Assembly (NCBI GenBank): GCA_021199375.1
Contig: JAJQIB010000020.1
Location: 28,931 to 92,930 of the forward strand
DNA: 64,000 bases
Reading direction: 5' to 3'
Source: Ruminococcus sp.
Lineage (GTDB): Bacteria > Bacillota > Clostridia > Oscillospirales > Ruminococcaceae
Made by a program: the position numbers and the translations under genes. Numbering within the stretch: the first letter of the stretch is position 1; each line of letters starts with the position of its first letter. The notes beneath the pieces are model-generated. The model had not been told where the DNA came from. It was given only the letters and a program-made list of their open reading frames with translations, and did no database searches. Shown here piece after piece: positions 18,515-52,823 of this stretch.

Positions 18515-18543
18515 TTGACAAAGTAAAGTCAAAGTGATAAAAT
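18515..18543 (+). promoter_or_regulatory. sigma70 promoter embedded in a MuF-linker-like coding relic
   Basis: TTGACA-N17-TAAAAT with TGn; the same bases read LTK*SQSDKIEE. Confidence 0.7.
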
Positions 18544-19200: not shown

Positions 19201-19229
19201 TTGACAATCACCAAAAAAAGGCGTATAAT
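19201..19229 (+). promoter_or_regulatory. Consensus sigma70 promoter, homologous to 44317-44345
   Basis: TTGACA-N17-TATAAT; shares 25 identical nt (aaaaaaggcgtataataaaagcagt) with the minus-strand copy. Confidence 0.8.
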
Positions 19230-25637: not shown

Positions 25638-25680
25638 GATAACTGATACATAAAGCGTGACCAATCGTGAGGTGATTGCT

Positions 25681-27671: not shown

Positions 27672-27680
27672 TCATCTGAC

Positions 27681-28434: not shown

Positions 28435-28588
28435 CAAGGAAAGAGAAAAACGAAGTATTTGGGCGATTATAATTCTTGCTCTGGTTAGGGTAGCATTGTA
28501 TCTTGCAAACGGCAGTGCTTGCGGTATTACGTTCTATCAGCCCCCAGAGCCTGACTTATCTGAGCTGTTTGAAAGGAGGGATTTGTAA
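28415..28588 (+). CDS. agrD: AgrD cyclic-peptide precursor 1 (ring CGITF); GTG start or frameshifted ATG 28431
   Basis: ...IWAIIILALVRVALYLANGSA-CGITF-YQPPEPDLSELFERRDL*; absent from the ORF track. Confidence 0.8.
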   Translation: MITVNDDKEREKRSIWAIIILALVRVALYLANGSACGITFYQPPEPDLSELFERRDL

Positions 28589-28743
28589 TGAAAAAGCTGA
28601 TGAGTATCGCAAAGAAGGCTTCCACGGCACTGGCGGCTCTCGCACTGGTGGTAGCTACCACATCTGTTCCAAGTGCTTGCTATCACTGGTTCGCACAGCC
28701 TGTTGAGCCGGAGGAGCTTAGAAAATATGTGAACAAAAAATAA
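28588..28743 (+). CDS. agrD: AgrD cyclic-peptide precursor 2 (ring CYHWF), 51 aa
   Basis: aggaggg RBS; MKKLMSIAKKASTALAALALVVATTSVPSA-CYHWF-AQPVEPEELRKYVNKK*; absent from the ORF track. Confidence 0.9.
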   Translation: MKKLMSIAKKASTALAALALVVATTSVPSACYHWFAQPVEPEELRKYVNKK

Positions 28744-28777
28744 TTAGCAACTATGTGTTGTAGAAAGGTGGTATGAA

Positions 28778-33050: not shown

Positions 33051-33298
33051 AATTACGGAAATTGAATAACTTTGCTTTTACCCATAGCCTATTGGCGCAC
33101 CTGTTTTTCGTTCCACACAAGTCTGAATAGTCATTGTGGCGCACACCACAACAGGCACAAACTCTATTGGAACTGAATAACCGCAAGCCCTCGGAAATGC
33201 TCTTGTAAGCGTTTCTGAGGGTTTTTCTTTTTCAGCGGTTAAGTTTTCCGCTCCGCAGGCTCGGACGGCACTGTAGGGCTTTTCCGTTTGCCCGACGG

Positions 33299-33892
33299 TC
33301 AAGCAGAGGTCTGCTCGGTGATGCCGTGACGGAGTTCATACTCACGCACACGGCGATAGAAAGTGTTAGCTGACAATCCCATTCTCCGCATAAAGTCCCT
33401 GCCCGTAATGTTCTTCGACTTCCATTCCCCATAGAGCTGCCCGAACCTCGTCCAGTCGGTGGGGATAGGCTTTCGCCCGGTGTACTTGCCCTGTGCCTTA
33501 GCGATCTCGATGCCCTCACGCTGTCGCTGTTTGAGCTGTTCACGCTCCAATTGTGAGAGGGCTGCGAACACGGTCAACATGAATTTTCCTGACGGTGTAT
33601 CGGTGTCGATTTTCTCCTTGTGGCTGACGATGATTACTCCCTTTTCGGTGAGCGTGTCGATGATGTTCAGCAAGTCCTTCGTGGAGCGCCCCAGACGGCT
33701 GATACTCTCGATGTAGAGCGTATCGCCCTCACGCACATAGTCCAGCATTGCCCTGAGCTGAGGACGGTCTGTGTCCGCTCCTGACAGCTTCTCGGAGAAG
33801 ATGCGGTCAACCTGATAGTCGCACATGATCTCATGCTGTCTCGCTGTTTCCTGATGTTCCGTTGAAACTCTGATGTATCCTATTTTGCTCAT
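33299..33892 (-). CDS. Small serine recombinase (resolvase/invertase) with C-terminal HTH
   Basis: GYIRVST, SGADTDRPQL, SISRLGRS motifs. Confidence 0.92.
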   Translation of the reverse strand: MSKIGYIRVSTEHQETARQHEIMCDYQVDRIFSEKLSGADTDRPQLRAMLDYVREGDTLYIESISRLGRSTKDLLNIIDTLTEKGVIIVSHKEKIDTDTPSGKFMLTVFAALSQLEREQLKQRQREGIEIAKAQGKYTGRKPIPTDWTRFGQLYGEWKSKNITGRDFMRRMGLSANTFYRRVREYELRHGITEQTSA

Positions 33893-33943
33893 AGCTTTTG
33901 TTTCCTTTCTGATGTAAAATTTTTTCTTTTTGTTGATTGACGG

Positions 33944-34019
33944 TTGACTTATTGGTGGTGATGATGTATAATTACTGATAAGGGTAGGCACTTAGCTTGC
34001 TCGTGAAAATCGGAATTTA
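33944..34019 (+). repeat. Cassette 5' site 1: promoter, TAAGGGTAGGCA box, 16 nt, AAATCGGAATTT
   Basis: TTGACT-N17-TATAAT (33944-33972), box 33979-33990, IR 34007-34018; homologous to 37082-37157. Confidence 0.75.
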
Positions 34020-34033
34020 GAGGAGTAGCACTT

Positions 34034-34495
34034 ATGGATTTTTTAGATTTAGATGATGAAGTATTGAATGATGTCCAGAAAGTAATGAGCTATGATTCCT
34101 CTATTCCGCTTCATTATAGGATTTTAGGAAAACTGAACTATAATGATGATCTTCGCAATTGTATCAGATTTATTGAAGCAAATAGAAGTCTATTTATGGA
34201 TGAATACGCTTATCTGATGCTTGAATCAGCAGTTGAGATGTGCCTTAATTCTGTTGTCAATGAGGATGGAGAGATATTTAATCTTTCAGATATCCCCAAA
34301 AATCATACTTATAAACCCGCTCCAATGGAACTGGAATACATCGAGTATCTTCTCAAAAATGGAGCAAGTCCGCTTCTTCCAAAACATTTTAATCAGTATG
34401 AACATATTGAAGATATGGAGGAAGATTGTTCTAATCAGATGGGTGTTCAATTTATATTGTCAGAGGTGAAAATGCTATTTGACAAATACTGCTAA
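34034..34495 (+). CDS. Hypothetical acidic cargo protein, 153 aa
   Basis: gaggag RBS; AT-rich; opposite strand to the flanking backbone genes. Confidence 0.75.
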   Translation: MDFLDLDDEVLNDVQKVMSYDSSIPLHYRILGKLNYNDDLRNCIRFIEANRSLFMDEYAYLMLESAVEMCLNSVVNEDGEIFNLSDIPKNHTYKPAPMELEYIEYLLKNGASPLLPKHFNQYEHIEDMEEDCSNQMGVQFILSEVKMLFDKYC

Positions 34496-34516
34496 ATTCT
34501 GATTTTTCTAAGTAAC
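34493..34516 (+). repeat. Cassette 3' site 1
   Basis: TAAATTCTGATTTTTCTAAGTAAC; 20/24 identical to 37660-37683; first 13 nt are a 12/13 inverted repeat of 34007-34019. Confidence 0.75.
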
Positions 34517-34529
34517 TATACATATCCTC

Positions 34530-34567
34530 AATGGCAAGGAGAAACCACTCTCCTTGCCGTTATTTTT
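34530..34567. terminator. Terminator between the cargo gene and the relaxase
   Basis: atggcaaggaga / tctccttgccgt stem plus T tract. Confidence 0.75.
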
Positions 34568-35978
34568 ATTCAAGCTGACTTTTCTTTCTCTTGGCAGATT
34601 GTTCGTTTTCCATATATCGGGAAAGTGTTCTCTGACTGTCACGCTTCTGCTGTGCAAGCCTTGAAAGCCTGTCCGCTTCTTTCTTTAGGGCTTTACGCTC
34701 CGCACTCATCTTGGCATAATCCTCACGGGCTTTCTTCAGCTCGTCCTGCAAGTCCTTGATCTTGGGAATAACGCCATTCGGAAACAGTTCTTTCAGCTTT
34801 TTACGACACTCATGATACTGGTCGAGTTCGTAACGGCAGTTCTCCCCATATTTCTTTTTAGCCTTTCCCTCCAAAGAAGAATAGTTCTTGTAATAGACCT
34901 TATACTTGCGGTATTCCTCGATAGCCGGAATTTGCTCCTCCAAAGCGTGGATACGGTCGCTCAATTCAAACTGCGGTGTTGACATGACCATAAATTCGGC
35001 AAGTGCCCTGTGAGCTGCGCTCTCCAATTCTTCAAGGGTGGAATTGCTTGCGTTCATCTCGTTGAGTGCCTTGCTTACCACCTTCATATTCTCACGGTCT
35101 GCCCAATTCGTCAAACCCTGAGACAGCTGAAATTTCTCGGTTGTGGTGCGAATAATTCTCGCTGTCGGGCGGTGCGACATTTGGTACTTGTAACTCTCGA
35201 TACGCTTTCTGATCTGCTGGCTCTCATAGAAGTAGCCCAGCGTTTTTGCTCTTGTAAACTTCGCCCTCGGATTGCGTTCCTTTTGCTCCGCAAGCATAAA
35301 TTTCAGGTCTATTTTGTGGTCGGGATTGTAGTCAACCAATATGCCGAAATCAGCACACTTTGCAAGGAAATCCTCAAAATCCTCGCTGACCTTGATAACC
35401 TCGTCAATGGCTCGTTTAAGCTGTTCTTTCCACGAAAGATTTTGCTTGTCAAGCTCCCACTCCCAATGGCTCTTACCCTTTGAAAGATGCGGATTTTCAA
35501 TGATAGAAAGTCCGTGTTTCCTGCAAAGTTCGTCCGAAATCGTGCGGAGTTTGCTCCACGCTCGGTCGGGAATTTTGCCCTGATTATGCTCGGTTTCAAA
35601 GGTCTTGCCCGTGTAGAAATTTACATTGTTCACGATGATGTGATTATGGATATGCTCATGGTCGCAATGCACAGCTAAAACATACTGATACTCGTCATTG
35701 AAAAATGCCTTGCAAAGCTCCTGCCCGATAAGCAAAGCCCGTTCGGGAGTGACCTCTCCGGGGGCAAAGCTCTGAATTATGTGCTGGCACTCGCTTCGGC
35801 TTCGTCCTGTGCCGACTGACTGCCTGATGTTCCTAAACTGTTCTGATGCTCCACATGGAGTAGATACGCACAAGTTGCTAACAACATATTTGCCGTCTGC
35901 GGTTTTGTCTGGGTTGCAGATATAAGCAATTGCGCCGTATGTTCCCGTGTGGATCGTATGGATACGAGTAACTGCCAA
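34566..35978 (-). CDS. Relaxase/mobilisation nuclease (MOBP-like)
   Basis: AIAYICNP (catalytic Y), HIIQSFAPGE, HCDHEHIHNH 3H motif. Confidence 0.9.
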   Translation of the reverse strand: MAVTRIHTIHTGTYGAIAYICNPDKTADGKYVVSNLCVSTPCGASEQFRNIRQSVGTGRSRSECQHIIQSFAPGEVTPERALLIGQELCKAFFNDEYQYVLAVHCDHEHIHNHIIVNNVNFYTGKTFETEHNQGKIPDRAWSKLRTISDELCRKHGLSIIENPHLSKGKSHWEWELDKQNLSWKEQLKRAIDEVIKVSEDFEDFLAKCADFGILVDYNPDHKIDLKFMLAEQKERNPRAKFTRAKTLGYFYESQQIRKRIESYKYQMSHRPTARIIRTTTEKFQLSQGLTNWADRENMKVVSKALNEMNASNSTLEELESAAHRALAEFMVMSTPQFELSDRIHALEEQIPAIEEYRKYKVYYKNYSSLEGKAKKKYGENCRYELDQYHECRKKLKELFPNGVIPKIKDLQDELKKAREDYAKMSAERKALKKEADRLSRLAQQKRDSQRTLSRYMENEQSAKRKKSQLE

Positions 35979-36529
35979 ACTTCCTCTAACCTCGCTTTCA
36001 TATCGGCAATATCCTCATCGTAGAGTTTGCCGCCTTTATTCACTCTATGGGCTACCTGATTGAACGAATTGGAGATAGATGAGATGTATCGTGCTATCTG
36101 TTTTATGTCCTCGGTATCTTCCTCAACATTCATCACGGTGAGTGCAGAATATCTGCAAAAATCACCCCTGCTTCTGAAACTTGTTTCAGTATATCGGCGG
36201 TTGATTGCTTCAAGCTCCATATCGTTCACTCTGAATGTGATAAGGTGCTTGCGTACCTCGCTCGGCTCGGTGTCCTGCGGTGGGGATTCGCCCTCGGTGG
36301 TTTCGGGCGGTTCTGTGAAATCCACCTCGCCCGATTCCGTGACTTCCAACATTGGAACAGGCTCGGCAGTGGTGTCCTCGGCGGTATCTGTTTCGGGATT
36401 ATCGGACAGCGTATCCGCCTGCATTTCGTCCGCATAGGTGTGGGCAAGTTTCTCCGCAAGCTCCTCGACTTGCTTATGCTTGAACAGCTTTGCAAGGAAG
36501 CCTTTTTCTGGCTTTTTGAATATTGACAT
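35777..36529 (-). CDS. mobC: MobC relaxosome accessory protein with acidic N-terminal extension
   Basis: ITFRVNDMELEAI RHH and ISSISNSFNQVAHRVN MobC motif; overlaps the relaxase start. Confidence 0.8.
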   Translation of the reverse strand: MSIFKKPEKGFLAKLFKHKQVEELAEKLAHTYADEMQADTLSDNPETDTAEDTTAEPVPMLEVTESGEVDFTEPPETTEGESPPQDTEPSEVRKHLITFRVNDMELEAINRRYTETSFRSRGDFCRYSALTVMNVEEDTEDIKQIARYISSISNSFNQVAHRVNKGGKLYDEDIADMKARLEEVWQLLVSIRSTREHTAQLLISATQTKPQTANMLLATCAYLLHVEHQNSLGTSGSQSAQDEAEASAST

Positions 36530-36602
36530 TGTGTTGTCCTCACTTTCTCGGCGGTTCTGCCGCCGTTCTTCGATTGCTCCTGCAATCGCTCTCAGGGGTC
36601 TT

Positions 36603-36667
36603 AGGGGAATTTTCCCCTGACAAGCCGTATAAAGTTTACGATTTTCCATAATCGTAATACTTTATAC
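36603..36667. promoter_or_regulatory. Candidate oriT (paired inverted repeats upstream of mobC)
   Basis: aggggaa / ttcccct and a 41-bp imperfect palindrome gtataaagtttacgatt...aatcgtaatactttatac. Confidence 0.35.
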
Positions 36668-37081
36668 CGTGCTTGTGAAAATTGATCGGGCGTTTCACGC
36701 CCTCACTTGTTTTTCGCTGTTTCACGGCGTTTTTTCACGCTCCTGCGTGATTTGGAGCTATGCGACTTTCTCTCTGTTCCGCACGGCTCTGAGAGTATTT
36801 TACCGGGGTTCGGCGCAGTTATGATGCTGGGTGGGCGGCAGTCTGGTGAAACCTTCCGTTCGGCTCTCCCTGAGCCGATTTTGAATGTCGATATGTTTAT
36901 CGTTACATTCAAATTTCTGCCCTGCCTGACCGCCCATGAAAATACCCTTCTACTTTACTACCGACGTTTTTGAGAAAATGCTCATGATTTTCCGAAAAGT
37001 TTACAGTTTGTTCATGACGATTCTCCCTCTTGCATAGTTTCAACATGGAATTTCTGTGTATGATGACGGTGATTTCAGAGG

Positions 37082-37157
37082 TTGCTTTTTCGGGGACGGT
37101 ATGATATAATTTAGGGGTAAGAGTAGGCATATGGCTTTCTTACGCAAATCGGAATTT
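37082..37157 (+). repeat. Cassette 5' site 2: promoter, TAAGAGTAGGCA box, 16 nt, AAATCGGAATTT
   Basis: TTGCTT-N17-TATAAT (37082-37110), box 37118-37129, IR 37146-37157. Confidence 0.75.
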
Positions 37158-37170
37158 GAGGAGATATTAT

Positions 37171-37662
37171 ATGGCTGAGATATGGGATGCATATGATAAT
37201 GAATTTAATAAAATAAAGAATATTACATTATTGAGAGGAGAACCAATTCCTGATGGCATATATCATTTGGTGGGTGAAGTTATTGTTAAACATATAGATG
37301 GCACTTACTTGATTATGCAAAGAGATTTTGAAAAAAAATTCGGTGGAATGTGGGAGTTGACAGCAGGTGGTTCTGCATTGCAAGGTGAAACGCCTTTAGA
37401 GTGTGCAGTAAGGGAATTGAAAGAAGAAACAGGTATTGAAGCATTACAAATTATGGAAATTGGGAGATTTGTGCAAGATGTTAACCACTCTCTTTATGCT
37501 GAATATCTATGTGTTACTGATTGGAAGAAAAATGCAGTTTCTCTTCAAGAAGGAGAAACTGTCAATTATAGGTGGGTAGATAAAAAGAGCCTTTTGGAAA
37601 TGAGCCAAGACGAGTTAGTATCATCAAGGGCAATCAAACTTATTAAATCATTAGATATATAA
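37171..37662 (+). CDS. NUDIX hydrolase (cargo)
   Basis: Nudix box GGSALQGETPLECAVRELKEETG. Confidence 0.92.
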   Translation: MAEIWDAYDNEFNKIKNITLLRGEPIPDGIYHLVGEVIVKHIDGTYLIMQRDFEKKFGGMWELTAGGSALQGETPLECAVRELKEETGIEALQIMEIGRFVQDVNHSLYAEYLCVTDWKKNAVSLQEGETVNYRWVDKKSLLEMSQDELVSSRAIKLIKSLDI

Positions 37663-37683
37663 ATTATGATTTATCTTAGCAAC
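37660..37683 (+). repeat. Cassette 3' site 2
   Basis: TAAATTATGATTTATCTTAGCAAC, starting at the NUDIX stop codon. Confidence 0.75.
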
Positions 37684-37902
37684 AAAAAACTGAATATCAA
37701 TATCATATGCAGAGCAACACCAGCTCTGCATTTTTTATACCCGATTCAAAATTCCCCATAACATTTTCACGATAAGAAAAGTTTTATGGCGCACTCAACT
37801 TCATGCGCACTGCGAATAGACTTTCACCTCGAAAGTGCGCTATAATTTTAGTATGGGGCTTAAGTATAGGCTCGACTAAAATTTCAGAATGGTGGTGATG
37901 AT

Positions 37903-38241
37903 ATGGCTACGACTTCTATCGCTGACAAGCTGGCGAAACTCGAAAAGAAGATCGCCAAGCGACAGGCTACGATCGCTGAGGAGCAGAAGCAGCTCGACAA
38001 GGAAATGGAGGAGTACAACAAGCTCTATCTGACGGCACTTGCCAACAAGTACAAGCTGAGTGGAAAAGACCTTTTCTCTGCTATCGAGCGTGAGCATGAA
38101 CAGCTTGAAAAGCTCCGTGAGGGTGAGCAGTCCGATGATGATGCGGACAGTAATTCCTCGGTCACGGACGATGAGGAAAAGCAGGACGATACTGCGGTCA
38201 AGCACAGCAGTTTTCCCCATAGCTACTCAGGCGGTAATTGA
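37903..38241 (+). CDS. Coiled-coil hypothetical protein (element backbone)
   Basis: tggtggtg RBS; heptad-rich sequence. Confidence 0.75.
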   Translation: MATTSIADKLAKLEKKIAKRQATIAEEQKQLDKEMEEYNKLYLTALANKYKLSGKDLFSAIEREHEQLEKLREGEQSDDDADSNSSVTDDEEKQDDTAVKHSSFPHSYSGGN

Positions 38242-38258
38242 CGGAAAGGGGGCTTTGA

Positions 38259-38708
38259 ATGAGTGACTATGTTTTCCTCGTTGGTGACGATTATGAGAGC
38301 AGCAACAAGGAATATGTTTCAATAAATTCTGACAAGGGAAAGCTGATAAGCATTGCCCTCGCCGCAAGCGGAATTCCGTTCAAAGGGCGGTTTGACAAAG
38401 AGCGTATGCTGTTCAATTATGACGGTGTTTACAAGGAGTCCGTTGATGAAATTATTGCAAAATTCACCTCGGACGAGTATGCCGAACAGCGTAATGAGTT
38501 AGCGGAGCATAAGGGCGATGACTGTCTTTATTTCCTGCCTGCTGTCGCAAAGCTCCTGCGTATGACAGAGGGTACGCTCCGCCGCAGACCTCTTGACATT
38601 CAGCTTGCCGTCTGCAAGCTGAATGTGGATAACTGGTACTGCGACACTTACACAATTCAGCATGAGCTGAAAGATGCGATGATGCTGATAACTAAACCCG
38701 AAACTTAA
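38259..38708 (+). CDS. Hypothetical protein (element backbone)
   Basis: aaggggg RBS; co-oriented with the recombinase operon. Confidence 0.7.
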   Translation: MSDYVFLVGDDYESSNKEYVSINSDKGKLISIALAASGIPFKGRFDKERMLFNYDGVYKESVDEIIAKFTSDEYAEQRNELAEHKGDDCLYFLPAVAKLLRMTEGTLRRRPLDIQLAVCKLNVDNWYCDTYTIQHELKDAMMLITKPET

Positions 38709-38836
38709 CATAAAATGATAGCTGTGTATGGGACGGCACTTGCCGTTCCGCACGGCTACCCTGTGCAGGCGTAACGCCCCTGCAACAAAAAGCCTATGCG
38801 TGTAGAGATAGATAATCGCAGGCGGAAAGGAGAAAC

Positions 38837-39034
38837 TTGGCAAGAAAGGATACAGGATATACTTTGGCTGAGCTGAATGAGCGATATAAAGACAAGCCTA
38901 CCAGCAAAGCCGTGTACGAAGTGGACGGTCAGCGTTATGCTGTGACAAGCCATTTCGTTGGTAATAAAGACCTTGACAAGGTGCTTTATGACCTCGCTTT
39001 CAAAAGAGCGTTTCAGGAAACCGAAAACAAGTAA
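38837..39034 (+). CDS. tnpW: TnpW-family transposon-encoded protein
   Basis: YEVDGQRYAVTSHFVG..LDKVLYDLA motif directly upstream of the large serine recombinase; aaaggag RBS. Confidence 0.65.
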   Translation: MARKDTGYTLAELNERYKDKPTSKAVYEVDGQRYAVTSHFVGNKDLDKVLYDLAFKRAFQETENK

Positions 39035-39126
39035 AAGTTTTGAAAAAAGACTTGCCATATTCGGTTTTCTGCGCTATAATAGTTGTATCATCGAATATGG
39101 TTTGCTTTGATTGGAAAGGAGTTATT

Positions 39127-40791
39127 ATGGCAAAGCAAACTACTTACAATGTCGGGATCTATGTGCGTTTGTCGCAGGAGGACGAGCGTGCAGGCGAATC
39201 CCTTTCGATTGAAAATCAGAAGAAGATGCTGACGGAATATGTCAGCAGACAGGAGGGCTGGAATCTCATCGAGATCTGCGAGGACGACGGCTATTCGGGA
39301 ACAAGTTTCGACAGACCCGGTGTCAGACAGCTTCTTGAAGATGCAAAGTCGGGAAAGATAAATTTGATCCTCTGTAAAGATTTATCCAGATTTGGTCGTA
39401 ATTACATCGAAGTCGGTCAGTATATCGACTATATTTTCCCTTCGTTCAATATTCGCTTCATCGCCCTGAGCGACAACGTGGATACCCTCGATAGAAACAG
39501 CTCGGCAATGGATCTTATGCCTGTGATGAATTTGTTCAACGAATGGCACGCCGCCAATACTTCAAAAAAAGTACGAAGTGTTATGGCGGCAAATTCAAGG
39601 CAGGGCAAGTATCTGGCGGCTTCCGCTGCTTACGGTTACATCAAGGCTGATGATGAAAAGCATACGCCTATCATTGATGAAGAAGCCGCCGTTATCGTAA
39701 GACGTATATTTGAGCAGAGGGCAAGAGGGTTAAGTCCGAAGCAGATCGCTATACAGCTTAACAAGGACGGCATCGCAACTCCCTCAGATCATCGCTATCA
39801 GCTTAAAGGCAAAGAAAATCCCCTTGTGACTTCACATCTGTGGAATGACTGTATGGTGCGTGGCATTCTTAACAATGAGATTTATATCGGAAATCTCGCA
39901 CAGCAGAGAGTAACAACAGTATCCTACAAAAACCACAAGCAGATACGCAAGGACAGGTCGGAGTGGGTCATCGTAGAAAATACCCATGAGCCAATCATTT
40001 CAAGGAAACTGTGGGATAAGGTTAGAGAGGTCGAAGCATCGGTGAGTATTGGTAAAATTACAAAGGAGGGTGTGATTCGCCCTTTGTCGGGCTTCATGTA
40101 CTGCCCTGAATGCGGATATAAGATGAAAATGAACAGAACTATGCACACCACAAAGAAGCGAGGTACTTACGAGACGGTCAGCTATCGCTGTGGTACTTAT
40201 GTGAGAAGTGGAATGGACGGCTGCACTCCTCATTCTATTTTGGAAAGAGTTATTTCAAAGGTCATTGTTGATGATATTAGAGCAAAGGCAAGGCTTGCCG
40301 TTGAGGACGAGGACACACTCCGTGAAGCCGTCCGCAAGCGCAGACAGGCTACTGCCGATGCGGAGAGCCAGCGCAACATGAGAGAACTTCGTGAGGGTGA
40401 GAAACGGCTTGCACAGCTTGAAACGCTTATCAGCAAGACCTATGAAGAAAAGCTCCTCGGTACTGTACCCGAAGAACTCTGCGTGAAAATGCTGAATCAG
40501 TATCTTGATGAACAGAAGATGCTGAGAGAGAAAGTTGCTGTGCTGAAAGAAAAGTGTGAAAGTGCTGAACAGGCTGAAAAAGATGTTGACAGGTTCGTTG
40601 AAAACATCAAAAAGTATGTCGATATTCAGGAGCTTACCCGTGAAACTTGTCTGGAACTTATTGAGTACATCGTGGTCGGAGACCGTCCCGAAATCAAGGG
40701 TGAGGACAGGCAGATACACATATTCTACAAGTTCCTTGATAAGGGGCTTACGGAAAAAAGAAACATTCTGCTGCCGCAGAATGTGGAGTAA
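39127..40791 (+). CDS. Large serine recombinase (TnpX/TndX-like integrase)
   Basis: IYVRLSQED, DDGYSGT, KDLSRFGRN, recombinase domain, CPECG...C zinc ribbon, coiled coil. Confidence 0.95.
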   Translation: MAKQTTYNVGIYVRLSQEDERAGESLSIENQKKMLTEYVSRQEGWNLIEICEDDGYSGTSFDRPGVRQLLEDAKSGKINLILCKDLSRFGRNYIEVGQYIDYIFPSFNIRFIALSDNVDTLDRNSSAMDLMPVMNLFNEWHAANTSKKVRSVMAANSRQGKYLAASAAYGYIKADDEKHTPIIDEEAAVIVRRIFEQRARGLSPKQIAIQLNKDGIATPSDHRYQLKGKENPLVTSHLWNDCMVRGILNNEIYIGNLAQQRVTTVSYKNHKQIRKDRSEWVIVENTHEPIISRKLWDKVREVEASVSIGKITKEGVIRPLSGFMYCPECGYKMKMNRTMHTTKKRGTYETVSYRCGTYVRSGMDGCTPHSILERVISKVIVDDIRAKARLAVEDEDTLREAVRKRRQATADAESQRNMRELREGEKRLAQLETLISKTYEEKLLGTVPEELCVKMLNQYLDEQKMLREKVAVLKEKCESAEQAEKDVDRFVENIKKYVDIQELTRETCLELIEYIVVGDRPEIKGEDRQIHIFYKFLDKGLTEKRNILLPQNVE

Positions 40792-40826
40792 AATATTTTT
40801 GGGTGTGCTTTTATGGGGTTCTCCTC

Positions 40827-43714: not shown

Positions 43715-43847
43715 TGATCACATATAATTTCCCAGAAAATAAGAACAATATTTGTGCAAACTGATAATTTTTTTCTTATCCCTTGACAAACACACGATAT
43801 TTTGATATAATTATTTAGCACGTTGACGAGATGTCAATTTTAGATAT

Positions 43848-43920
43848 GAGTTATTAGCTCAGTTGGCAGAGCATTTGACTTTTAATCAAAGGGTCCGGGG
43901 TTCAAATCCCCGATAGCTCA
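43848..43920 (+). tRNA. tRNA-Lys (anticodon TTT), CCA not encoded
   Basis: Acceptor GAGTTAT/ATAGCTC, D-arm TAGCTCAGTTGGCAGAGC, anticodon stem TTTGA/TCAAA with loop CTTTTAA, T-arm CGGGG-TTCAAAT-CCCCG. Confidence 0.97.
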
Positions 43921-43922
43921 TT

Positions 43923-43977
43923 AAAAAACACCCGTAAATCGTTGATTTTACACGATTTGCGGGTGTTTTAATTTTTT
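43923..43977 (+). terminator. Long hairpin after tRNA-Lys
   Basis: aaaacacccgtaaatcgt / acgatttgcgggtgtttt. Confidence 0.75.
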
Positions 43978-44036
43978 ACTCATTATAGGCTTATCACGTC
44001 ATATTCTGCGGCAGCTGGAGAATCTTATTGTAACAT

Positions 44037-44069
44037 AAAAAGCACCCACACCGTATGTGTGGAGCACTT
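44037..44069 (-). repeat. Terminator-like repeat, divergent copy C
   Basis: Reverse complement aagtgctccacacatacggtgtgggtgcttttt resembles copies A and B. Confidence 0.75.
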
Positions 44070-44084
44070 AAAAAAACTTGTTTA

Positions 44085-44260
44085 TTATTCGATATCAATT
44101 ATTCTCTCTTCGTTAGCAACCCCCTGCAATTTGGATCTGAACAGTGGAACCACGTGGCTGTAGAATTGTTTTCACCGCTCACGTCAAAATAGCTTTTTTT
44201 ACAAACTGGGCAAAGGACTTTCTCGCCTCTTCTTAGCTTATCGAATATGTTTTCTTCCAT
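44085..44260 (-). pseudogene. Small zinc-ribbon immunity-like gene with a 1-nt deletion near the 3' end
   Basis: MEENIFDKLRRGEKVLCPVC...FHCSDPNCRG; a shifted frame ends ANEERIIDIE*, matching the paralog end IIEIE* of 44981-45166. Confidence 0.65.
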
Positions 44261-44316
44261 AAATAGTGCATCCCTTCCGCCAATCGATATCATTGTAGGC
44301 TTCTTTTACTGCTTTT

Positions 44317-44345
44317 ATTATACGCCTTTTTTCTGCAATTGTCAA
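44317..44345 (-). promoter_or_regulatory. sigma70 promoter embedded in a MuF-linker relic
   Basis: TTGACA-N17-TATAAT; reads QLTIAEKRRIIKAVKE. Confidence 0.8.
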
Positions 44346-44408
44346 TTGCATTTGCTCTTTTTGTCAACTGCTTTAGCAGTAATATTTATTGACTTATGTG
44401 TTTTTTGC

Positions 44409-44437
44409 TTGACTTCCACACACTGATGTGATATAAT
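44409..44437 (+). promoter_or_regulatory. sigma70 promoter of the hydrophobic-peptide pair
   Basis: TTGACT-N17-TATAAT with TGn. Confidence 0.7.
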
Positions 44438-44463
44438 AATAACATAGAAAATAAGTGAATACG

Positions 44464-44570
44464 ATGAGTAAGCATATAAAAGAAAAGCAAAGAGCTTTCT
44501 TAAAATTGCAACAGGCGCTAGCTTAATACTCGCCAGTATTGCGAACCTGATAACAGTAATTAAACATTAA
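44464..44570 (+). pseudogene. Short hydrophobic peptide (type I toxin-like), 1 nt short in an A-run
   Basis: Adding one A at 44478-44481 gives MSKHIKRKAKSFLKIATGASLILASIANLITVIKH*. Confidence 0.5.
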
Positions 44571-44624
44571 GAAGCTCTGAGAAGCTTTAAACTCCTCCCA
44601 CATAAGGGGGATTGCTTTCAAATT

Positions 44625-44654
44625 TATTATATCACTAATATTGGAGGTTGTCAA
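44625..44654 (-). promoter_or_regulatory. Antisense promoter candidate facing the upstream peptide gene
   Basis: TTGACA-N18-TATAAT with TGn on the minus strand, overlapping the RBS of 44656. Confidence 0.55.
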
Positions 44655-44655
44655 G

Positions 44656-44823
44656 ATGAAAAAAACTGATATTTGCTTATTAGCGCTAGCTTCTTCGCTG
44701 CTTTTAGCCATTAACACTGATTGGAGCTTGTATTCCAAAATATCCGTAATAACATCGTCAATCTGTTGCATGGCTTGTGGGGTATTGACTATTAAGGATG
44801 CTTTGGACGGTGATGAGGATTAA
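44656..44823 (+). CDS. Small two-TM hydrophobic protein, 55 aa
   Basis: ggagg RBS; MKKTDICLLALASSLLLAIN...SIC. Confidence 0.65.
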   Translation: MKKTDICLLALASSLLLAINTDWSLYSKISVITSSICCMACGVLTIKDALDGDED

Positions 44824-44980
44824 ATAAATCATGCTAAATCAATTGGCATTTTATGGCTATAAAAATAAGGCAATGTAGTTAATTCGACCATTTCAGAAGC
44901 TAGAAATATGAGATAAGAAATAATCAAATGACCAAAGGAACCAAGCCTTGAATTTAATTAGAGAAAAGGCGGTTATGTAT

Positions 44981-45166
44981 ATGTCAGAAGGAAATAATGA
45001 TCTGTTAACCAAATTAAGGAATGAAGAGAAAATTAAATATCCAAAATGCCATAGTGGAAATGTCATTCCATATAATGCCGTTGCAGAAAAGGCTCATTAT
45101 TTTTACTGCTCTAATGAAATCTGTGATTGGTATTTGCAAATAGACCCAATAATTGAAATCGAATAA
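44981..45166 (+). CDS. Small zinc-ribbon immunity-like protein (paralog of 44085-44260; first Cys replaced by Tyr)
   Basis: LTKLRNEEKIKYPKCHSG...AHYFYCSNEICDW...IIEIE. Confidence 0.65.
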   Translation: MSEGNNDLLTKLRNEEKIKYPKCHSGNVIPYNAVAEKAHYFYCSNEICDWYLQIDPIIEIE

Positions 45167-45258
45167 TTAGTTGAGGTTATGTTCGAATCTGAAGCGAAAT
45201 AAGTTTATTAAAGAGTAAAATCTTTAGTGTATACATATGTAGAGAGGTGGCACAAATA

Positions 45259-45435
45259 ATGTCAGTTGTTATCCCAGACTGTACTTCTTGCAAGCATATT
45301 TTTAAAGAAAACGACAGCACTACTTTTTATTGTAGCGCTTTCCCTAATGGAATACCAAAAGATTATTTTTGGGGGAATGTAGATGTACGTAAAATTTTTG
45401 AGTGTGCTAACGGAATCAAATTTGAAGAAGATTAA
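45259..45435 (+). CDS. Small Cys-rich immunity-like protein (CxxC...C.AFP.GIP...C)
   Basis: gagaggtgg RBS; DCTSCKH...CSAFPNGIPKD...ECANGIKFEED; same pattern as 46973-47155. Confidence 0.7.
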   Translation: MSVVIPDCTSCKHIFKENDSTTFYCSAFPNGIPKDYFWGNVDVRKIFECANGIKFEED

Positions 45436-45674
45436 GCAGCATAAAAAGCATATATAAAAAAACACCTACCATCCCTTCATGGCTCAACGTTCTTGCGGGT
45501 TAGCAGCATATTGACTTCTTGAAAGCGTTGTGATCCTCTCTCAAGAAGCAATTGGGAGTAGATTAGTAATGCTTGACTTTTTTTAGAGTGTATGATATAA
45601 TAAGGATATAATAAGGATATAAAAATGAAATTTTACGTTAAATAAGACGACAGGTGTCAGTAAGGAGGATAACT

Positions 45675-45797
45675 ATGGATGAGATGACTGATATGCAATT
45701 CGAAGCTATAATAAATGCGATAATTCAAATAATCAAAGATAATAATAGCAAAGAAGAAACAATTAAAAAAATCGAAGCCTTAATTCATACGAATTAA
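45675..45797 (+). CDS. 40-aa helical peptide (MTDxQF family)
   Basis: aaggagg RBS; upstream TTGACT-N17-TATAAT; MDEMTDMQFEAIINAIIQIIKDNNSKEETIKKIEALIHTN*; absent from the ORF track. Confidence 0.75.
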   Translation: MDEMTDMQFEAIINAIIQIIKDNNSKEETIKKIEALIHTN

Positions 45798-45895
45798 GAC
45801 TTTAGAAAGTCCAAAGAGAGAGGGCGACAAGCTTGCCACCGTCCTCCGCCCCCTATTTTAATACATGGCAAGCAAAATTTAAAGAGGTGATTAAA

Positions 45896-46081
45896 ATGGC
45901 ATATGATGAGAAGGCAAAGCAACGCACAATGAAGTACATGAAAGAAAAACGAGATAAGCTTACTCTCAATTTTCCACTTGGTGATAAAGACCGTTACAAA
46001 GCGTATGCAGAAAGTCAAGGCATGAGTTTAACAGCACTGATTGTTAAGCTTTTGGAAGAGGATATAAAGAGACATGAGTAG
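45896..46081 (+). CDS. Ribbon-helix-helix DNA-binding protein (antitoxin/Arc-like)
   Basis: gaggtga RBS; KLTLNFPLGDKDRYKAYAESQGMSLTALIVKLLEE. Confidence 0.75.
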   Translation: MAYDEKAKQRTMKYMKEKRDKLTLNFPLGDKDRYKAYAESQGMSLTALIVKLLEEDIKRHE

Positions 46082-46093
46082 GGAGATGATTAT

Positions 46094-46396
46094 ATGAGTG
46101 AAAATCATTCAATGACCCCGCAAGAGAAGTATGATAAGGAAAATACTCAATTTGTAGGCATGAAGCTTAGCAAGAAAAACGATGCTGATATTTTAGAAGC
46201 AATTAACGGCAAAGCAAAGCAAACAGAATTGAAAAGACTTATCAGGCTTGGCTTGGGAGAAAGTGCTGAAAGCAGTGTAGGAATGACAGATTATCAGTTT
46301 AAATTCATCTTATCATTAATTAAAGTGTGCGTTGAAACAATGGACAAAAGCGAAGTTATAGATTTGCTTGACAGCTTCATAAATGAGGCTAAATGA
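46094..46396 (+). CDS. RHH-like domain fused to an MTDxQF helical domain
   Basis: TPQEKYDKENTQFVGMKL..KNDADIL...KQTELKRLIR followed by MTDYQFKFIL. Confidence 0.65.
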   Translation: MSENHSMTPQEKYDKENTQFVGMKLSKKNDADILEAINGKAKQTELKRLIRLGLGESAESSVGMTDYQFKFILSLIKVCVETMDKSEVIDLLDSFINEAK

Positions 46397-46519
46397 TTAA
46401 CTTACCAATTACATACAATATTTGTGATTATTTGAGTGAGATATATATTTTGTCATTTCCTTTCGAAAATAAGGGCTATTGCCGGTTAGGCGATGGTCCT
46501 TTTAACTTTCATCAGCATT

Positions 46520-46586
46520 CCTTTCGTTACGCTTTTACGGGGTCGTGTCCCTTTACGAGTTTAGTTTTACGTCATTTCGGACAATA
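46520..46586 (-). ncRNA. Phage scaffold (GP20)-leader-like structured RNA remnant
   Basis: TTGTCCGAAATGACGTAAAACT...GGGACACGACCCCGTAAAAGCGTAACGAAAGGA precedes a truncated ORF (MLMKVKGPSPNRQ*); position after MuF-immunity-terminator matches the scaffold gene slot. Confidence 0.4.
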
Positions 46587-46641
46587 TTAAAAACGCCTGC
46601 AATTGTTTACAAGCGTTGTTTACAGATTTGGTTTTTGGTAT

Positions 46642-46675
46642 AAAAGCAAGCACCCACAACATATGTGTGAGTGCT
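46642..46675 (-). repeat. 34-bp terminator-like repeat, copy B
   Basis: Reverse complement identical to 19142-19175. Confidence 0.9.
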
Positions 46676-46791
46676 TGAAGCGCTTAATCAGAAAGCGCCT
46701 TACCAACTGCAAGACACCTTCAGGAACCCTTTCTGCTCATGGCAGATGGGTGATTGTCTTCCTTATGTATGAGCACTGAAAAAAAGTATTT

Positions 46792-46953
46792 TTAGTTCAC
46801 TGTGTGTTCCGCTGCGTATTCCACTGTGTGTTCCGATAGGCCGATCATATCAAATGGGATCATAGTTTCTTTTTGAAGCTTTAGGAGACCTCGAATTTCT
46901 TTGTCAGAATATCCATATTCCTTTGCCTGCTTTATGAATTCCATTTCCGTCAT
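46792..46953 (-). CDS. 53-aa phage-type small protein
   Basis: MTEMEFIKQAKEYGYSDKEIRGLLKLQKETMIPFDMIGLSEHTVEYAAEHTVN*; absent from the ORF track. Confidence 0.6.
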   Translation of the reverse strand: MTEMEFIKQAKEYGYSDKEIRGLLKLQKETMIPFDMIGLSEHTVEYAAEHTVN

Positions 46954-46972
46954 TTACCATTCACCTTCCTTT

Positions 46973-47155
46973 CTACTCATGGTAGATGGACGGCTTTGGC
47001 AAATTTTCATCCACTTCTATTTCCTTGTCCTCATACCACTCGCATTCTACATCTTCTACGAAAATTTCAGAAGGTATCTCCTCGGGATATTTTTCACACT
47101 TTTTGTGTGGAAACATAAAAAACTTGCATCCAGTGCAATTGGGCATTCTTGCCAT
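46973..47155 (-). CDS. Small Cys-rich immunity-like protein
   Basis: ggagg RBS; NCTGCKFF...KCEKYPEEIPSEIF...CEWYE. Confidence 0.7.
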   Translation of the reverse strand: MARMPNCTGCKFFMFPHKKCEKYPEEIPSEIFVEDVECEWYEDKEIEVDENLPKPSIYHE

Positions 47156-47159
47156 AGCT

Positions 47160-47700
47160 CTAACCTCCAAAGTAATCTTTTATATATTCGTTATAAACGT
47201 CTAGATATTTTGTGGGGACTTTTTCCCATTTATTTAATGCAACGTGCACTTCGTTTAAGAATTCGCCGCCATCTGAATCAACTAATCTACAAAAGCCTTT
47301 CATACAGTGCTTCAGCTTTTTCAATTGAATTTCCATAATTGATTTTTGAATGCATAATCTCATGGTTGACTAAATCGCTAACGTTCTTGCTTTTCCACCA
47401 GTTATCATTAAAGCATTTTTCACATGCGCCGTTCAAGTCATTCAAGCTTTTGCCCCAAAAGTAATCTTTGTTCAAATATAATTGCGTTTTTAGAATGTCT
47501 TGCGATATGTCTTTGCCTTCAAAATTGGTGCTAGCATTTAACAAATAAGTACAATCATCGGGAATTTGACCGATTTCTTTAAACTTATTATACCACCTTC
47601 ACGCCCGATCGTCAACTCCTTATTGCTTTTCCACTTCCCAATCCCGACATTTCCAACTCCGTCAACAGTAACTCTTTTCCTTTGACAATGTAACAATCCA
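47160..47700 (-). pseudogene. Phage minor capsid (MuF-type) C-terminal relic with HExxH metallopeptidase-like toxin domain, two internal deletions
   Basis: RVTVDGVGNVGIGKWK, linker ELTIGREGGII, then in shifted frames ...LVNHEIMHSKINY... and ...GFCRLVDSDGGEFLNEV...DYFGG*. Confidence 0.65.
47587..47615 (-). promoter_or_regulatory. sigma70 promoter embedded in MuF linker codons
   Basis: TTGACG-N17-TATAAT with TGn; encodes LTIGREGGII. Confidence 0.75.
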
Positions 47701-47791
47701 AAAATTTGTAATAAATATTCTTGAAATACTTGACATGAAATCAATTTTATGTTATAATCAAAATATTAAAATTATAAAAGGAGACAATATA

Positions 47792-52689: not shown

Positions 52690-52823
52690 ATGTTGGTGCT
52701 ATAAAATTGTAATGGAAAATTTAGACCATTGACAACAATCAAAAAATATGATATAATAGATTAAATTGCCGAGTCTTTTAAGGTGTTTGGCAAACTCATA
52801 AATACACATAGGAGATTTTTGTT

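What the first reader, a model, noticed from the sequence alone, without database searches (positions are those of the whole stretch)
47587..47615. Consensus sigma70 promoter written into the codons of the MuF toxin linker, recurring in every cassette
Seen: TTGACG-N17-TATAAT here encodes LTIGREGGII. The same dual coding occurs at 44317-44345 (TTGACA-17-TATAAT, LTIAEKRRII), 19201-19229 (LTITKKRRII) and 18515-18543 (TTGACA-17-TAAAAT, LTK*SQSDKI). In each the LT..(G/D/R)II linker equals the -35/-10 boxes. Inference: MuF genes carry an internal promoter that expresses the toxin tip and immunity gene in the lysogen independently of late transcription. This would explain why deletions keep exactly this linker and the last toxin codons holding the immunity RBS. 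I know of no description of this but cannot check the literature.
Basis: partly seen in the sequence, partly recalled or inferred. Interest (0 to 1): 0.72.

Follow-up and report, generated by a model that had tools for sequence, protein, structure and literature searches.

The report
Promoter hidden inside phage toxin codons
A near-perfect bacterial promoter is written into the codons just before the toxic tip of a family of phage "MuF" toxins, is kept at silent codon positions in dozens of diverged phages, and most likely keeps the neighbouring antidote (immunity) gene switched on; this window holds a decayed copy with the toxin dead and the promoter and antidote intact.

Summary
All four motifs exist at the stated coordinates. 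The organism uses near-consensus promoters widely: 23 in the window against 0.88 expected.

The 47587-47615 site lies in real former coding sequence. It is a decayed MuF-toxin C-terminal cassette with an HExxH toxin domain, followed by an intact cognate immunity gene and a terminator.

The same promoter sits at the same place in intact MuF1 and MuF2 toxin genes of (pro)phages.
- 26 of 28 linker clusters below 85% identity score at least 10/12, and 20 of 28 have the TGn extension.
- Silent positions inside the hexamers never vary: 28/28 and 28/28 against about 12 expected. Flanking silent sites vary freely.
- The -35 box is encoded in two reading frames, with the spacer changing between 17 and 16.
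- The -10 box survives amino-acid changes.

1. No conserved start codon lies before the immunity ATG about 540 nt downstream, so the promoter probably serves immunity, not the toxin tip.
2. It belongs to certain cassettes, not to all MuF toxins.
3. Sites 44317 and 19201 are two copies of one repeat with no coding evidence, and 18515 is an ordinary promoter.
4. No transcription start data could be obtained.

The closest precedents are the internal promoters of Rhs toxins and the colicin immunity promoters.

The parts
47587..47615 (-). Sigma-A/sigma-70-type promoter: -35 TTGACG at 47615-47610, 17-nt spacer ending in TGG, -10 TATAAT at 47592-47587. It is written in the codons E-L-T-I-G-R-E-G-G-I-I of the toxin linker.
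   Evidence: Identical in strain L002. Same position and architecture in intact MuF toxin genes.
47563..47693 (-). Relic of the last codons of a MuF2-type N-terminal region (LHCQRKRVTVDGVGNVGIGKWK) plus the linker (SNKELTIGREGGIISLKKSVK). About 400 N-terminal codons are missing. The relic abuts the divergent promoter at 47730-47758 (+).
   Evidence: Compare 'LPQQRERVTVDGLGNIG.GKY' in the intact L051 protein, P0004 and P0008.
47160..47562 (-). Decayed HExxH (NHEIMH) toxin domain, now a pseudogene. Lesions: a 1-nt deletion in an A-run at about 47564, a 135-nt internal deletion, a 26-nt deletion, and reading in three frames. The last codons (DYFGG*, GGAGGT) form the Shine-Dalgarno sequence of the immunity gene.
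   Evidence: Homologous intact domains. Model and weak zinc-metallopeptidase fold match.
46973..47155 (-). Intact cognate immunity gene (MARMPNCTGCKFFMFPHKKCEKYPEEIPSEIF..., 60 aa). It belongs to the Cys-rich 'CxxC...P.GIP' family that directly follows these toxins in phages.
   Evidence: tblastn hits to the genes just downstream of the toxins in L010-L013. Intact in L002 and L003.
46792..46953 (-). Second small gene of the cassette (53 aa, MTEMEFIKQAKEYGY...). Function unknown. Conserved in L001-L003.
   Evidence: No match in the phage loci.
46647..46677 (-). Intrinsic-terminator-like hairpin that closes the cassette. Its core (46642-46675) is a perfect 34-nt inverted copy of 19142-19175.
   Evidence: (I2).
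44317..44345 (-). Consensus promoter (12/12) upstream of a 53-aa zinc-ribbon gene (44099-44260, -). It is one copy of a 62-nt repeat shared with 19182-19243. No evidence that it is coding or derived from MuF.
   Evidence: (I1). Only a weak similarity (E 0.39) to the linkers of L186-188 and L057.
19201..19229 (+). Consensus promoter (12/12), the second copy of the 62-nt repeat. It lies 26 nt after a terminator hairpin and 163 nt before the hydrolase gene (19392). In strains L002 and L003 it directly follows the 47-kb cassette's terminator.
18515..18543 (+). Ordinary intergenic promoter (11/12, TGn) for the small-gene cluster 18560-19126. It has an in-frame stop and is not a linker.
45259..45435 (+). 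Second orphan immunity gene (MSVVIPDCTSCKHIF...AFPNGIP...), of the type that follows 'IDIDD'-subfamily toxins. It is preceded by about 10 relic toxin codons (VYTYVERWHK*) that hold its ribosome-binding site. No linker promoter is kept here.
   Evidence: tblastn hits to 106 phage and metagenome loci at the immunity position.

Best explanation
The motif at 47587-47615 is a real sigma-A-type promoter that was already built into the coding sequence of a phage MuF polymorphic toxin. It sits in the disordered linker just upstream of the variable C-terminal toxin domain.

In intact prophages the layout is: MuF head-protein domain, then linker with promoter, then toxin domain, then an abutting small immunity gene, then terminator hairpins. 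This forms a self-contained transcription unit nested in the late operon, like a phage 'moron'.

Inferred mechanism: in a lysogen the late operon is silent. The internal promoter still fires about 7 nt after the -10 box and transcribes the toxin-domain codons as a roughly 540-nt untranslated leader. The first translatable gene on that RNA is the immunity gene. The lysogen therefore stays immune to the toxin carried by sibling phage particles.

The promoter also marks the crossover point where toxin-immunity cassettes are exchanged between unrelated MuF backbones.

In this window the unit survives as a chromosomal relic. The MuF part is deleted and the toxin is destroyed by independent lesions in each strain. 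The promoter, immunity gene and terminator are kept, so it is an orphan immunity module.

Shown: the motif, its homology, its conservation at silent sites, and the layout. Inferred: promoter activity, expression in the lysogen, and that only immunity is translated.
For: 1. Identity. The profile search finds 428-614 aa proteins that end in this domain, with PF04233 (MuF1) or PF06152 (MuF2) N-terminal domains.

2. Position. In every intact gene where the linker could be located (41 loci), the best sigma-70 match lies at the same offset. In 22 of the 23 genes tested it is essentially the only strong match in the open reading frame: about 0.7% of background windows reach it in most genes and up to about 2% in a few, which is mostly the site itself. 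The exception is L012 (see evidence against).

3. Silent-site test on 28 clusters below 85% identity.
- Third base of codon -2 is T in 28/28 (expected 12.7).
- Third base of codon -1 is A in 28/28 (expected 11.5).
- Valine at the -35 box is GTT in 13/13 (background 0.41).
- Third base of codon -3 is T in 24/28 (expected 12.2), which creates the TGn extension in 20/28.
- Neighbouring conserved Lys, Asp and Ile codons vary at background rates.
- If the clusters were independent, the two -10 columns alone would have probabilities of about 2e-10 and 1e-11. This is not corrected for phylogeny.

4. Frame independence. The -35 box is encoded as TTG-ACN (Leu-Thr, spacer 17) or as xTT-GAC/GAA/GCA-A (Val/Leu-Asp/Glu/Ala, spacer 16). 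The -10 box persists as TAcAAT or TAaAAT when Ile becomes Thr or Lys, and as GGG-TAC-AAT (Gly-Tyr-Asn, another frame) in L022.

5. The linker is predicted to be disordered (pLDDT below 50), so the protein constraint there should be weak.

6. Recoding each linker with random synonymous codons gives P = 0.0005-0.31 per gene.

7. The immunity gene abuts or overlaps the toxin stop codon, leaving no room for an intergenic promoter. Terminator-like hairpins follow it.

8. L076 and L075 are 100% identical for 300 nt up to 5 nt past the -10 box, and unrelated after it.

9. The window organism uses such promoters widely: 23 against 0.88 expected.

10. In the window, L002 and L003 the toxin carries different inactivating lesions. 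The promoter is intact in the window and L002, and the immunity gene in all three.
Against: - There are no transcription start or expression data. The only RNA runs found were sparse wastewater contigs.
- The linker is also a conserved peptide motif, (S/G/D)-I-I-K-S-I-D, so some protein-level constraint exists.
- The sequences are related, so the counts are not independent events.
- Many members have a weak -35 box (TTGCAA or TTGTAA, 4/6).
- Silent-site conservation extends a few codons past the -10 box (for example ATA at codon +3 in 19/21). A promoter model explains this only loosely.
- Other toxin-tip types on the same backbone lack a junction promoter.
- Strain L003 has lost the promoter yet keeps the immunity gene.
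- Three other orphan fragments have no such promoter.
- A 540-nt untranslated leader is unusual.
- The one Bacteroidaceae homologue (L012) lacks the motif. That fits a host-specific promoter, but it is a single case.
Confidence: 0.7

Rival explanations
1. Look-alike without function. The (S/G)-I-I-K peptide is conserved for protein reasons, such as the first strand of the toxin domain or a processing site. A/T-rich codon usage then happens to spell a promoter.
For: The peptide motif is conserved beyond the hexamers (K, S/N, I, D at +1 to +4). ATA, AAA and GAT are common codons in these genes. For several genes, synonymous recoding reaches the observed score in 15-30% of trials.
Against: Silent sites in the hexamers are invariant (56/56 against about 24 expected) while flanking silent sites vary. 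The -35 box is kept in two different frames with different amino acids and a compensating spacer. The -10 box is kept when the amino acid changes or the frame differs, as in L022. The region is predicted to be disordered.
Confidence: 0.1
2. Recombination patch. The nucleotides are conserved because the linker is the homology arm used to swap toxin-immunity cassettes, like VENN in CdiA or PxxxxDPxGL in Rhs. The promoter resemblance would be secondary.
For: L076 and L075 are identical up to 5 nt past the -10 box and unrelated after it. The same linker joins three different toxin-tip types and both MuF1 and MuF2 backbones.
Against: Conservation is confined to two hexamers, while the spacer is variable in both sequence and length. 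Patches of 6 nt are far too short for homologous recombination. A homology arm would not tolerate the 1-nt shift of the -35 box. This rival can hold together with the promoter model.
Confidence: 0.12
3. Secondary promoter. The promoter arose, or was selected, only after the toxin gene was truncated in this chromosome, in order to rescue expression of the orphan immunity gene.
For: The window copy is closer to consensus (11/12 plus TGn) than many intact phage copies (10/12).
Against: The motif is present at the same codons in intact full-length genes, including 12/12 versions (L013, L051, L053, L056, L057).
Confidence: 0.03
4. The internal promoter drives a free-standing toxin tip as well as immunity, acting as an addiction (toxin-antitoxin-like) module. 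This is what is reported for Rhs and is what the first reader proposed.
For: There is a precedent in Salmonella Rhs, where internal promoters plus a weak CTG start give a toxic product (PMC7043789). Scattered in-frame starts exist in a few genes (L027, L051, L175, L177).
Against: No Shine-Dalgarno sequence plus start codon is conserved between the promoter and the immunity ATG in the 28 lineages. In the window and its relatives the toxin is dead while the unit is kept.
Confidence: 0.15

Closest known systems
Internal promoters of Rhs polymorphic toxins (P2A/P2B in Salmonella Typhimurium; PMC7043789)
   Same: The promoter lies inside the toxin reading frame, in the conserved region just upstream of the demarcation between the delivery part and the variable toxin tip. 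It transcribes the tip plus the immunity gene independently of the full-length gene, and it is also present in orphan cassettes.
   Different: Rhs is a T6SS-linked toxin of Gram-negative bacteria. Its promoter lies 89 nt before the PxxxxDPxGL motif, and a CTG start gives a toxic product. Here the host genes are phage head genes of Firmicutes, the promoter is a near-consensus TGn-extended sigma-A site exactly at the junction, no internal start codon is conserved, and activity is not yet shown.
Constitutive immunity promoters of nuclease colicin operons
   Same: The immunity gene has its own constitutive promoter in addition to the inducible toxin promoter, so cells stay protected when the toxin is off (PMC9742991). 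That this promoter lies within the colicin structural gene is from my own knowledge of colicin biology.
   Different: Colicin operons are plasmid-borne and SOS-regulated, not phage structural operons. There is no cassette exchange at the promoter.
MuF polymorphic toxins of temperate phages (Jamet et al. 2017, PMC5576092)
   Same: Intact relatives have a MuF1 or MuF2 N-terminal domain, a variable C-terminal toxin and a small downstream immunity gene. The paper reports metallopeptidase tips in 20% of MuF toxins.
   Different: That paper and later MuF papers do not mention a linker motif or an internal promoter. The window copy has lost the MuF domain and is not in a prophage.
Phage morons (lysogen-expressed genes with their own promoter and terminator inside late operons)
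   Same: There is a promoter-like site upstream and terminator-like hairpins downstream of the toxin-tip and immunity unit, inside the head-gene block. The definition of a moron is from my own knowledge.
   Different: The promoter is inside a structural gene's codons rather than between genes, and half of the unit is the 3' part of that structural gene.

Membership tests
MuF polymorphic toxin (Jamet et al. 2017) | N-terminal MuF domain (PF04233 MuF1, PF06152 MuF2, or MuF3/4) | tested here: not met
   The window copy keeps only about 20 codons of the MuF2 tail (LHCQRKRVTVDGVGNVG...) and has no Pfam hit. Intact homologues do carry PF04233 or PF06152. The window therefore holds a relic of a member, not a member.
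MuF polymorphic toxin (Jamet et al. 2017) | Variable C-terminal toxin domain | tested here: inconclusive
   A homologous HExxH domain is present but broken by a frameshift and two deletions. Toxicity has not been tested. The fold match to a putative zinc metallopeptidase is weak (E 0.0099) and there is no Pfam family.
MuF polymorphic toxin (Jamet et al. 2017) | Small immunity gene immediately downstream | tested here: met
   The gene at 46973-47155 (-) starts 4 nt after the toxin stop codon, with its Shine-Dalgarno sequence in the last toxin codons. It is homologous to the genes that follow the toxins in L010-L013.
MuF polymorphic toxin (Jamet et al. 2017) | Located in a temperate phage or prophage head-gene block, downstream of the portal gene | tested here: not met
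   The window neighbours are a transporter operon on one side and, in related strains, the hydrolase, ComM and phosphoglucomutase genes on the other. The intact relatives come from IMG/VR viral contigs.
Sigma-70/sigma-A promoter | -35 TTGACA-like and -10 TATAAT-like hexamers 16-18 nt apart, optionally with a TGn extension | tested here: met
   11/12 with a 17-nt spacer and TGn in the window. 26 of 28 diverged lineages score at least 10/12, and 20 of 28 have TGn.
Sigma-70/sigma-A promoter | Selective constraint on the DNA motif itself | tested here: met
   Silent-site invariance and frame-independent encoding. Not corrected for phylogeny.
Sigma-70/sigma-A promoter | Transcription start 5-9 nt downstream of the -10 box; activity in vivo | not testable with these tools
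   No usable RNA data. Searches found only sparse wastewater contigs.
Rhs-type internal toxin-tip/immunity expression unit | Internal translation start that yields a free toxin tip | tested here: not met
   No conserved Shine-Dalgarno sequence plus start codon lies between the promoter and the immunity ATG at +531 to +555 nt in the 28 lineages.
Phage moron | Own promoter and own terminator flanking a unit inside a late operon | tested here: met
   A promoter-like site lies at the linker and two terminator-like hairpins follow the immunity gene in L014 and L004. A terminator hairpin is at 46647-46677 in the window. These are pattern matches only.
Phage moron | Expressed from the repressed prophage | not testable with these tools
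   No lysogen transcriptome is available.

The most novel reading that the evidence does not exclude
A dual-coding consensus promoter defines the 5' edge of mobile toxin-immunity cassettes in phage MuF toxins. Under this reading, each cassette brings its own lysogen-active promoter and terminator, the promoter doubles as the crossover point for cassette swapping between unrelated head-protein backbones, and it explains how chromosomes collect working orphan immunity genes after the phage and the toxin have decayed. The conserved '(S/G)GII' peptide motif of these toxins would then be shaped mainly by selection on DNA rather than on protein.
Probability: 0.5. Interest if true: 0.72.

Novelty: new member of a known kind. 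Interest (0 to 1): 0.6.

Why it matters
MuF toxins are common in prophages of gut Firmicutes, but it is not known how and when they and their antidotes are expressed. The published model requires lysogens to be immune while the head genes are silent, and gives no mechanism for this.

A conserved promoter inside the toxin gene would supply that mechanism. It makes the question directly testable, because it names the exact 29 nt to mutate at silent positions.

It is also an unusually clean natural case of overlapping protein and regulatory codes. It gives a practical marker for the start of toxin-immunity cassettes, and it offers an explanation for orphan immunity islands such as the one next to tRNA-Lys in this window.

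Tried and rejected
- Pfam, PDB sequence search and phage tblastn on the toxin fragment gave nothing. Identity came only from the exhaustive profile search.
- The profile built from two sequences dropped the 51 linker columns. The linker was therefore studied on fetched DNA instead.
- An exact-pattern search for the 44317/19201-type promoter in viral contigs found 0 matches.
- A protein search with the supposed 44317 peptide found no homologue. The zinc-ribbon gene downstream of it matched only itself. A MuF origin for these two sites could therefore not be shown.
- A short blastn put their best hits on the linkers of L186-188 and L057, but at E 0.39. I treat this as a lead only.
- RNA evidence: two run searches and one read-laying gave only sparse wastewater contigs with no usable 5' ends.
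- The idea that all MuF toxins carry the junction promoter is rejected.
- The idea that deletions always preserve the linker is rejected.
- The idea that the promoter evolved after truncation is rejected.
- Only 3 relatives were found in the species-representative genomes, so host range could not be analysed. It has 39% G+C, and a neighbouring SpoIIID gene in L001 points to an endospore-forming Firmicute.

Full report
**1. Checking the observation**

- 47615..47587 (-): TTGACG-17-TATAAT, with TGG just before the -10 box.
- 44345..44317 (-): TTGACA-17-TATAAT.
- 19201..19229 (+): TTGACA-17-TATAAT.
- 18515..18543 (+): TTGACA-17-TAAAAT.

The window holds 23 matches to TTGACA-N17-TATAAT with at most one mismatch. 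Dinucleotide-preserving shuffles give 0.88, with a maximum of 3. This organism therefore uses near-consensus promoters routinely, many with the TGn extension. A match of this quality is very likely a working promoter here. By the same token, three of the four sites may simply be ordinary promoters.

**2. What surrounds the 47587 site**

On the minus strand the frame through the motif reads ...LHCQRKRVTVDGVGNVGIGKWKSNKELTIGREGGIISLKKSVK. It then runs into a stop, and the sequence continues in another frame as IPDDCTYLLNASTNFEGKD...NHEIMHSKINYGNS....

A word-based protein search found only three relatives.
- P0003 reads straight through the junction (...GIISLKKSVKIPDDCTYLLNAS...). The window therefore has a 1-nt deletion in an A-run near 47564.
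- P0002 shows that the window also lacks an internal stretch.

A three-way DNA alignment shows independent lesions in each strain.
- Window: the frameshift, a 135-nt deletion and a 26-nt deletion.
- L002: two premature stop codons, an extra T, the same 26-nt deletion, and a further TGA from a GGA-to-TGA change two codons before the normal stop.
- L003: a 1-nt deletion, and replacement of everything upstream of a point 4 nt after the -10 box.

The downstream 60-aa gene (46973-47155, -) is intact in all three. Its Shine-Dalgarno sequence, GGAGGT, is formed by the last toxin codons. A 53-aa gene follows (46792-46953), then a terminator hairpin (46647-46677).

**3. Is it a MuF toxin?**

Pfam, PDB and phage tblastn gave nothing for the fragment. 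The exhaustive profile search found 43 relatives, including full-length proteins of 428-614 aa that end in this domain.

Their N-terminal parts are PF04233 (Phage_Mu_F) or PF06152 (Phage_min_cap2). These are the MuF1 and MuF2 domains of the MuF toxin superfamily defined by Jamet et al. (PMC5576092).

The window's 'QRKRVTVDGVGNVG' is the tail of the MuF2 region. Compare 'LPQQRERVTVDGLGNIG' in the L051 protein, P0004 and P0008.

The C-terminal domain models well (pLDDT 82.7). Its best solved-structure match is a putative zinc metallopeptidase, but weakly (E 0.0099). The same paper says 20% of MuF toxins have metallopeptidase tips.

The window copy is a relic, not a gene, and it is not in a prophage: its neighbours are a transporter operon and housekeeping genes.

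**4. The decisive test: do intact genes keep the promoter?**

I fetched DNA for relatives from three collections.
- IMG/VR viral contigs: L004-L010 and L014-L059.
- Species-representative genomes: L011-L013.
- Metagenomes: L139-L192.

In every intact gene where the linker could be located, the best sigma-70 match lies at the same offset just before the toxin domain. Scores range from 9 to 12 of 12, including perfect 12/12 sites in L013, L051, L053, L056 and L057.

In 22 of the 23 genes tested, that site is essentially the only strong match in the reading frame. About 0.7% of codon-aligned windows reach its score in most genes, and up to about 2% in a few. That is mostly the few windows overlapping the site itself. 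The exception is L012.

After clustering 81 genes into 28 linker clusters below 85% identity:
- 26 score at least 10/12;
- 20 carry TGn;
- the spacer is 16 nt in 19 clusters and 17 nt in 9.

**5. Is the conservation in the DNA or in the protein?**

Four observations point to the DNA.

(a) Silent sites.
- The codon before the first Ile (Gly, Asp or Ser) ends in T in 28/28, against 12.7 expected from these genes' own codon usage.
- The next codon (Ile, Lys or Thr) ends in A in 28/28, against 11.5 expected.
- The codon before those ends in T in 24/28, against 12.2 expected. This creates TGn.
- At the -35 box, Val is GTT in 13/13 (background 0.41), and the next codon ends in A in 23/28 (11.6 expected).
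- The neighbouring conserved Lys (+1), Asp (+6) and second Ile vary at background frequencies.

(b) The -35 hexamer is encoded in two frames. One is TTG-ACN (Leu-Thr or Phe-Thr) with a 17-nt spacer, as in the window. The other is xTT-GAC/GAA/GCA/GTA-A (Val/Leu/Ile followed by Asp/Glu/Ala/Val) with a 16-nt spacer. The 1-nt shift is absorbed by the spacer.

(c) The -10 box survives amino-acid replacement. Thr gives TACAAT and Lys gives TAAAAT. In L022 the box sits in a different frame as GGG-TAC-AAT (Gly-Tyr-Asn), with no 'GII' at all.

(d) The linker is predicted to be disordered (pLDDT 29-35).

Recoding each linker with random synonymous codons reaches the observed score with P = 0.0005-0.31 per gene. 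That test is conservative, because it takes the amino acids as given.

Two caveats apply. The lineages are related, so the counts are not independent events. Some silent-site conservation also continues a few codons beyond the -10 box.

**6. What the promoter probably drives**

In intact phages the immunity gene abuts or overlaps the toxin stop codon, with its Shine-Dalgarno sequence in the last toxin codons. It encodes a 57-72 aa Cys-rich protein with the pattern 'CxxCKH...C(D/K)AFPNGIP'. There is no room for an intergenic promoter.

Between the linker promoter and that ATG (+531 to +555 nt), no Shine-Dalgarno sequence plus start codon is conserved in the 28 lineages. The simplest reading is that the toxin-domain codons serve as an untranslated leader and that only immunity is translated.

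Two terminator-like hairpins follow the immunity gene in L014 and L004, before the next head gene. The unit therefore looks like a self-contained, moron-like transcription unit.

This fits the published model in which lysogens are protected by prophage-encoded immunity (PMC5576092). That model needs immunity to be expressed while the late genes are off.

**7. The promoter marks the cassette boundary**

L076 and L075 are 100% identical for at least 300 nt up to 5 nt past the -10 box. Beyond that they are unrelated, with two different toxin subfamilies.

The same 'KAVAK....SIIK' linker precedes three toxin-tip types. The linker plus tip occurs on both MuF1 and MuF2 backbones.

Other tip types on the very same backbone diverge earlier, right after 'GFGRSTAQKAV', and have no junction promoter. 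The promoter therefore belongs to a subset of cassettes, not to MuF genes as such.

**8. The other three sites in the window**

Sites 44317 and 19201 lie in two copies of a 62-nt repeat that is 84% identical.
- Their 'LTIAEKRRII' and 'LTITKKRRII' frames are short and closed upstream by stop codons, or run through a terminator hairpin.
- The peptide has no homologue.
- The gene downstream of 44317 matches nothing but itself.
- None of the neighbouring small genes occurs next to MuF toxins in my loci.
- A short blastn places their best hits on real linkers (L186-188, L057), but at E 0.39. This is a lead, not evidence.

Site 18515 is an ordinary promoter 17 nt before a small gene.

The window does hold a second true relic. 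The gene at 45259-45435 (+) is an orphan immunity gene of the 'IDIDD' subfamily type. It is preceded by about 10 relic toxin codons that carry its ribosome-binding site, but it has no linker promoter. Three orphan toxin fragments from metagenomes also lack one.

**9. Comparison with what is known**

The MuF papers held in the library do not mention a linker motif or an internal promoter.

The principle itself is known elsewhere.
- Salmonella Rhs genes have internal promoters in the conserved region 89 nt before the demarcation motif. They transcribe the toxin tip and the immunity gene (PMC7043789). The authors explicitly ask whether other toxin families do the same.
- Nuclease colicin immunity genes have their own constitutive promoter (PMC9742991).

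I therefore rate this as a new member of a known kind. It has an unusually clear comparative signature of dual coding, and the experiment to test it is directly available.

**10. Verdict**

- Confidence that the linker motif is a functional internal promoter conserved in this group of MuF toxin cassettes is about 0.7.
- Confidence that it serves immunity alone is about 0.55.
- Interest is 0.6.

Noticed in passing
window 19142-19175 and 46642-46675: These are perfect 34-nt inverted copies of a terminator hairpin. In related assemblies (L002, L003) the sequence left of 46642 (minus strand) continues directly into 19176 onward (plus strand). The window therefore carries a ~27.5-kb inversion relative to them, with breakpoints in the hairpins. 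An assembly artefact in one or the other is not excluded.
   Followed up: partly
window 25484-40822: A 15.3-kb segment splits a yfhO-type membrane protein gene. The piece at 24159-25499 matches Pfam profile positions 62-489 and the piece at 40813-41955 matches positions 500-835. The segment ends with a large serine recombinase (39040-40791) and is absent from strain L002. It is an integrated mobile element.
   Followed up: partly
window 43850-47700: Next to tRNA-Lys (43847-43921) lies a 4-kb stretch of small genes, several of them Cys-rich zinc-ribbon-like proteins. Each has a consensus promoter and hairpin terminator, on both strands. Two are MuF-toxin immunity homologues (45259-45435 +, 46973-47155 -). 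It looks like an island of orphan immunity genes.
   Followed up: partly
L074, L078, L091, L108 (about 56 codons before the toxin stop): MuF toxins with a deaminase-like tip (SERGMCDSCK) share a different promoter-like site, TTGAAA/T-17-TATAAT. Its -10 box is written as TGG-TAT-AAT (Trp-Tyr-Asn), which gives TGnTATAAT. Other cassette types may carry their own internal promoter nearer the immunity gene. Four sequences are too few to test this.
   Followed up: no
L003 245 / window 47583: In strain L003 a deletion joins the transporter gene (window ~48495) to a point 4 nt downstream of the -10 box. This removes the promoter but keeps everything from the predicted transcription start onward.
   Followed up: no
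L012 (Bacteroidaceae MAG), linker at about 3030: The only homologue from a Bacteroidaceae genome lacks the sigma-70-like motif (best 8/12). This would fit the different promoter consensus of that phylum, but it is a single case.
   Followed up: no
window 27763-27850: Three perfect head-to-tail copies of a 27-nt unit lie inside the ORF at 27739-28434.
   Followed up: no
window 14070-14103 and 52725-52758: A 34-nt inverted repeat, 82% complementary, covers two consensus promoters (TTGACA...TGATATAAT). Like the 19201/44317 pair, this suggests that promoter modules recur as short repeats in this genome.
   Followed up: no
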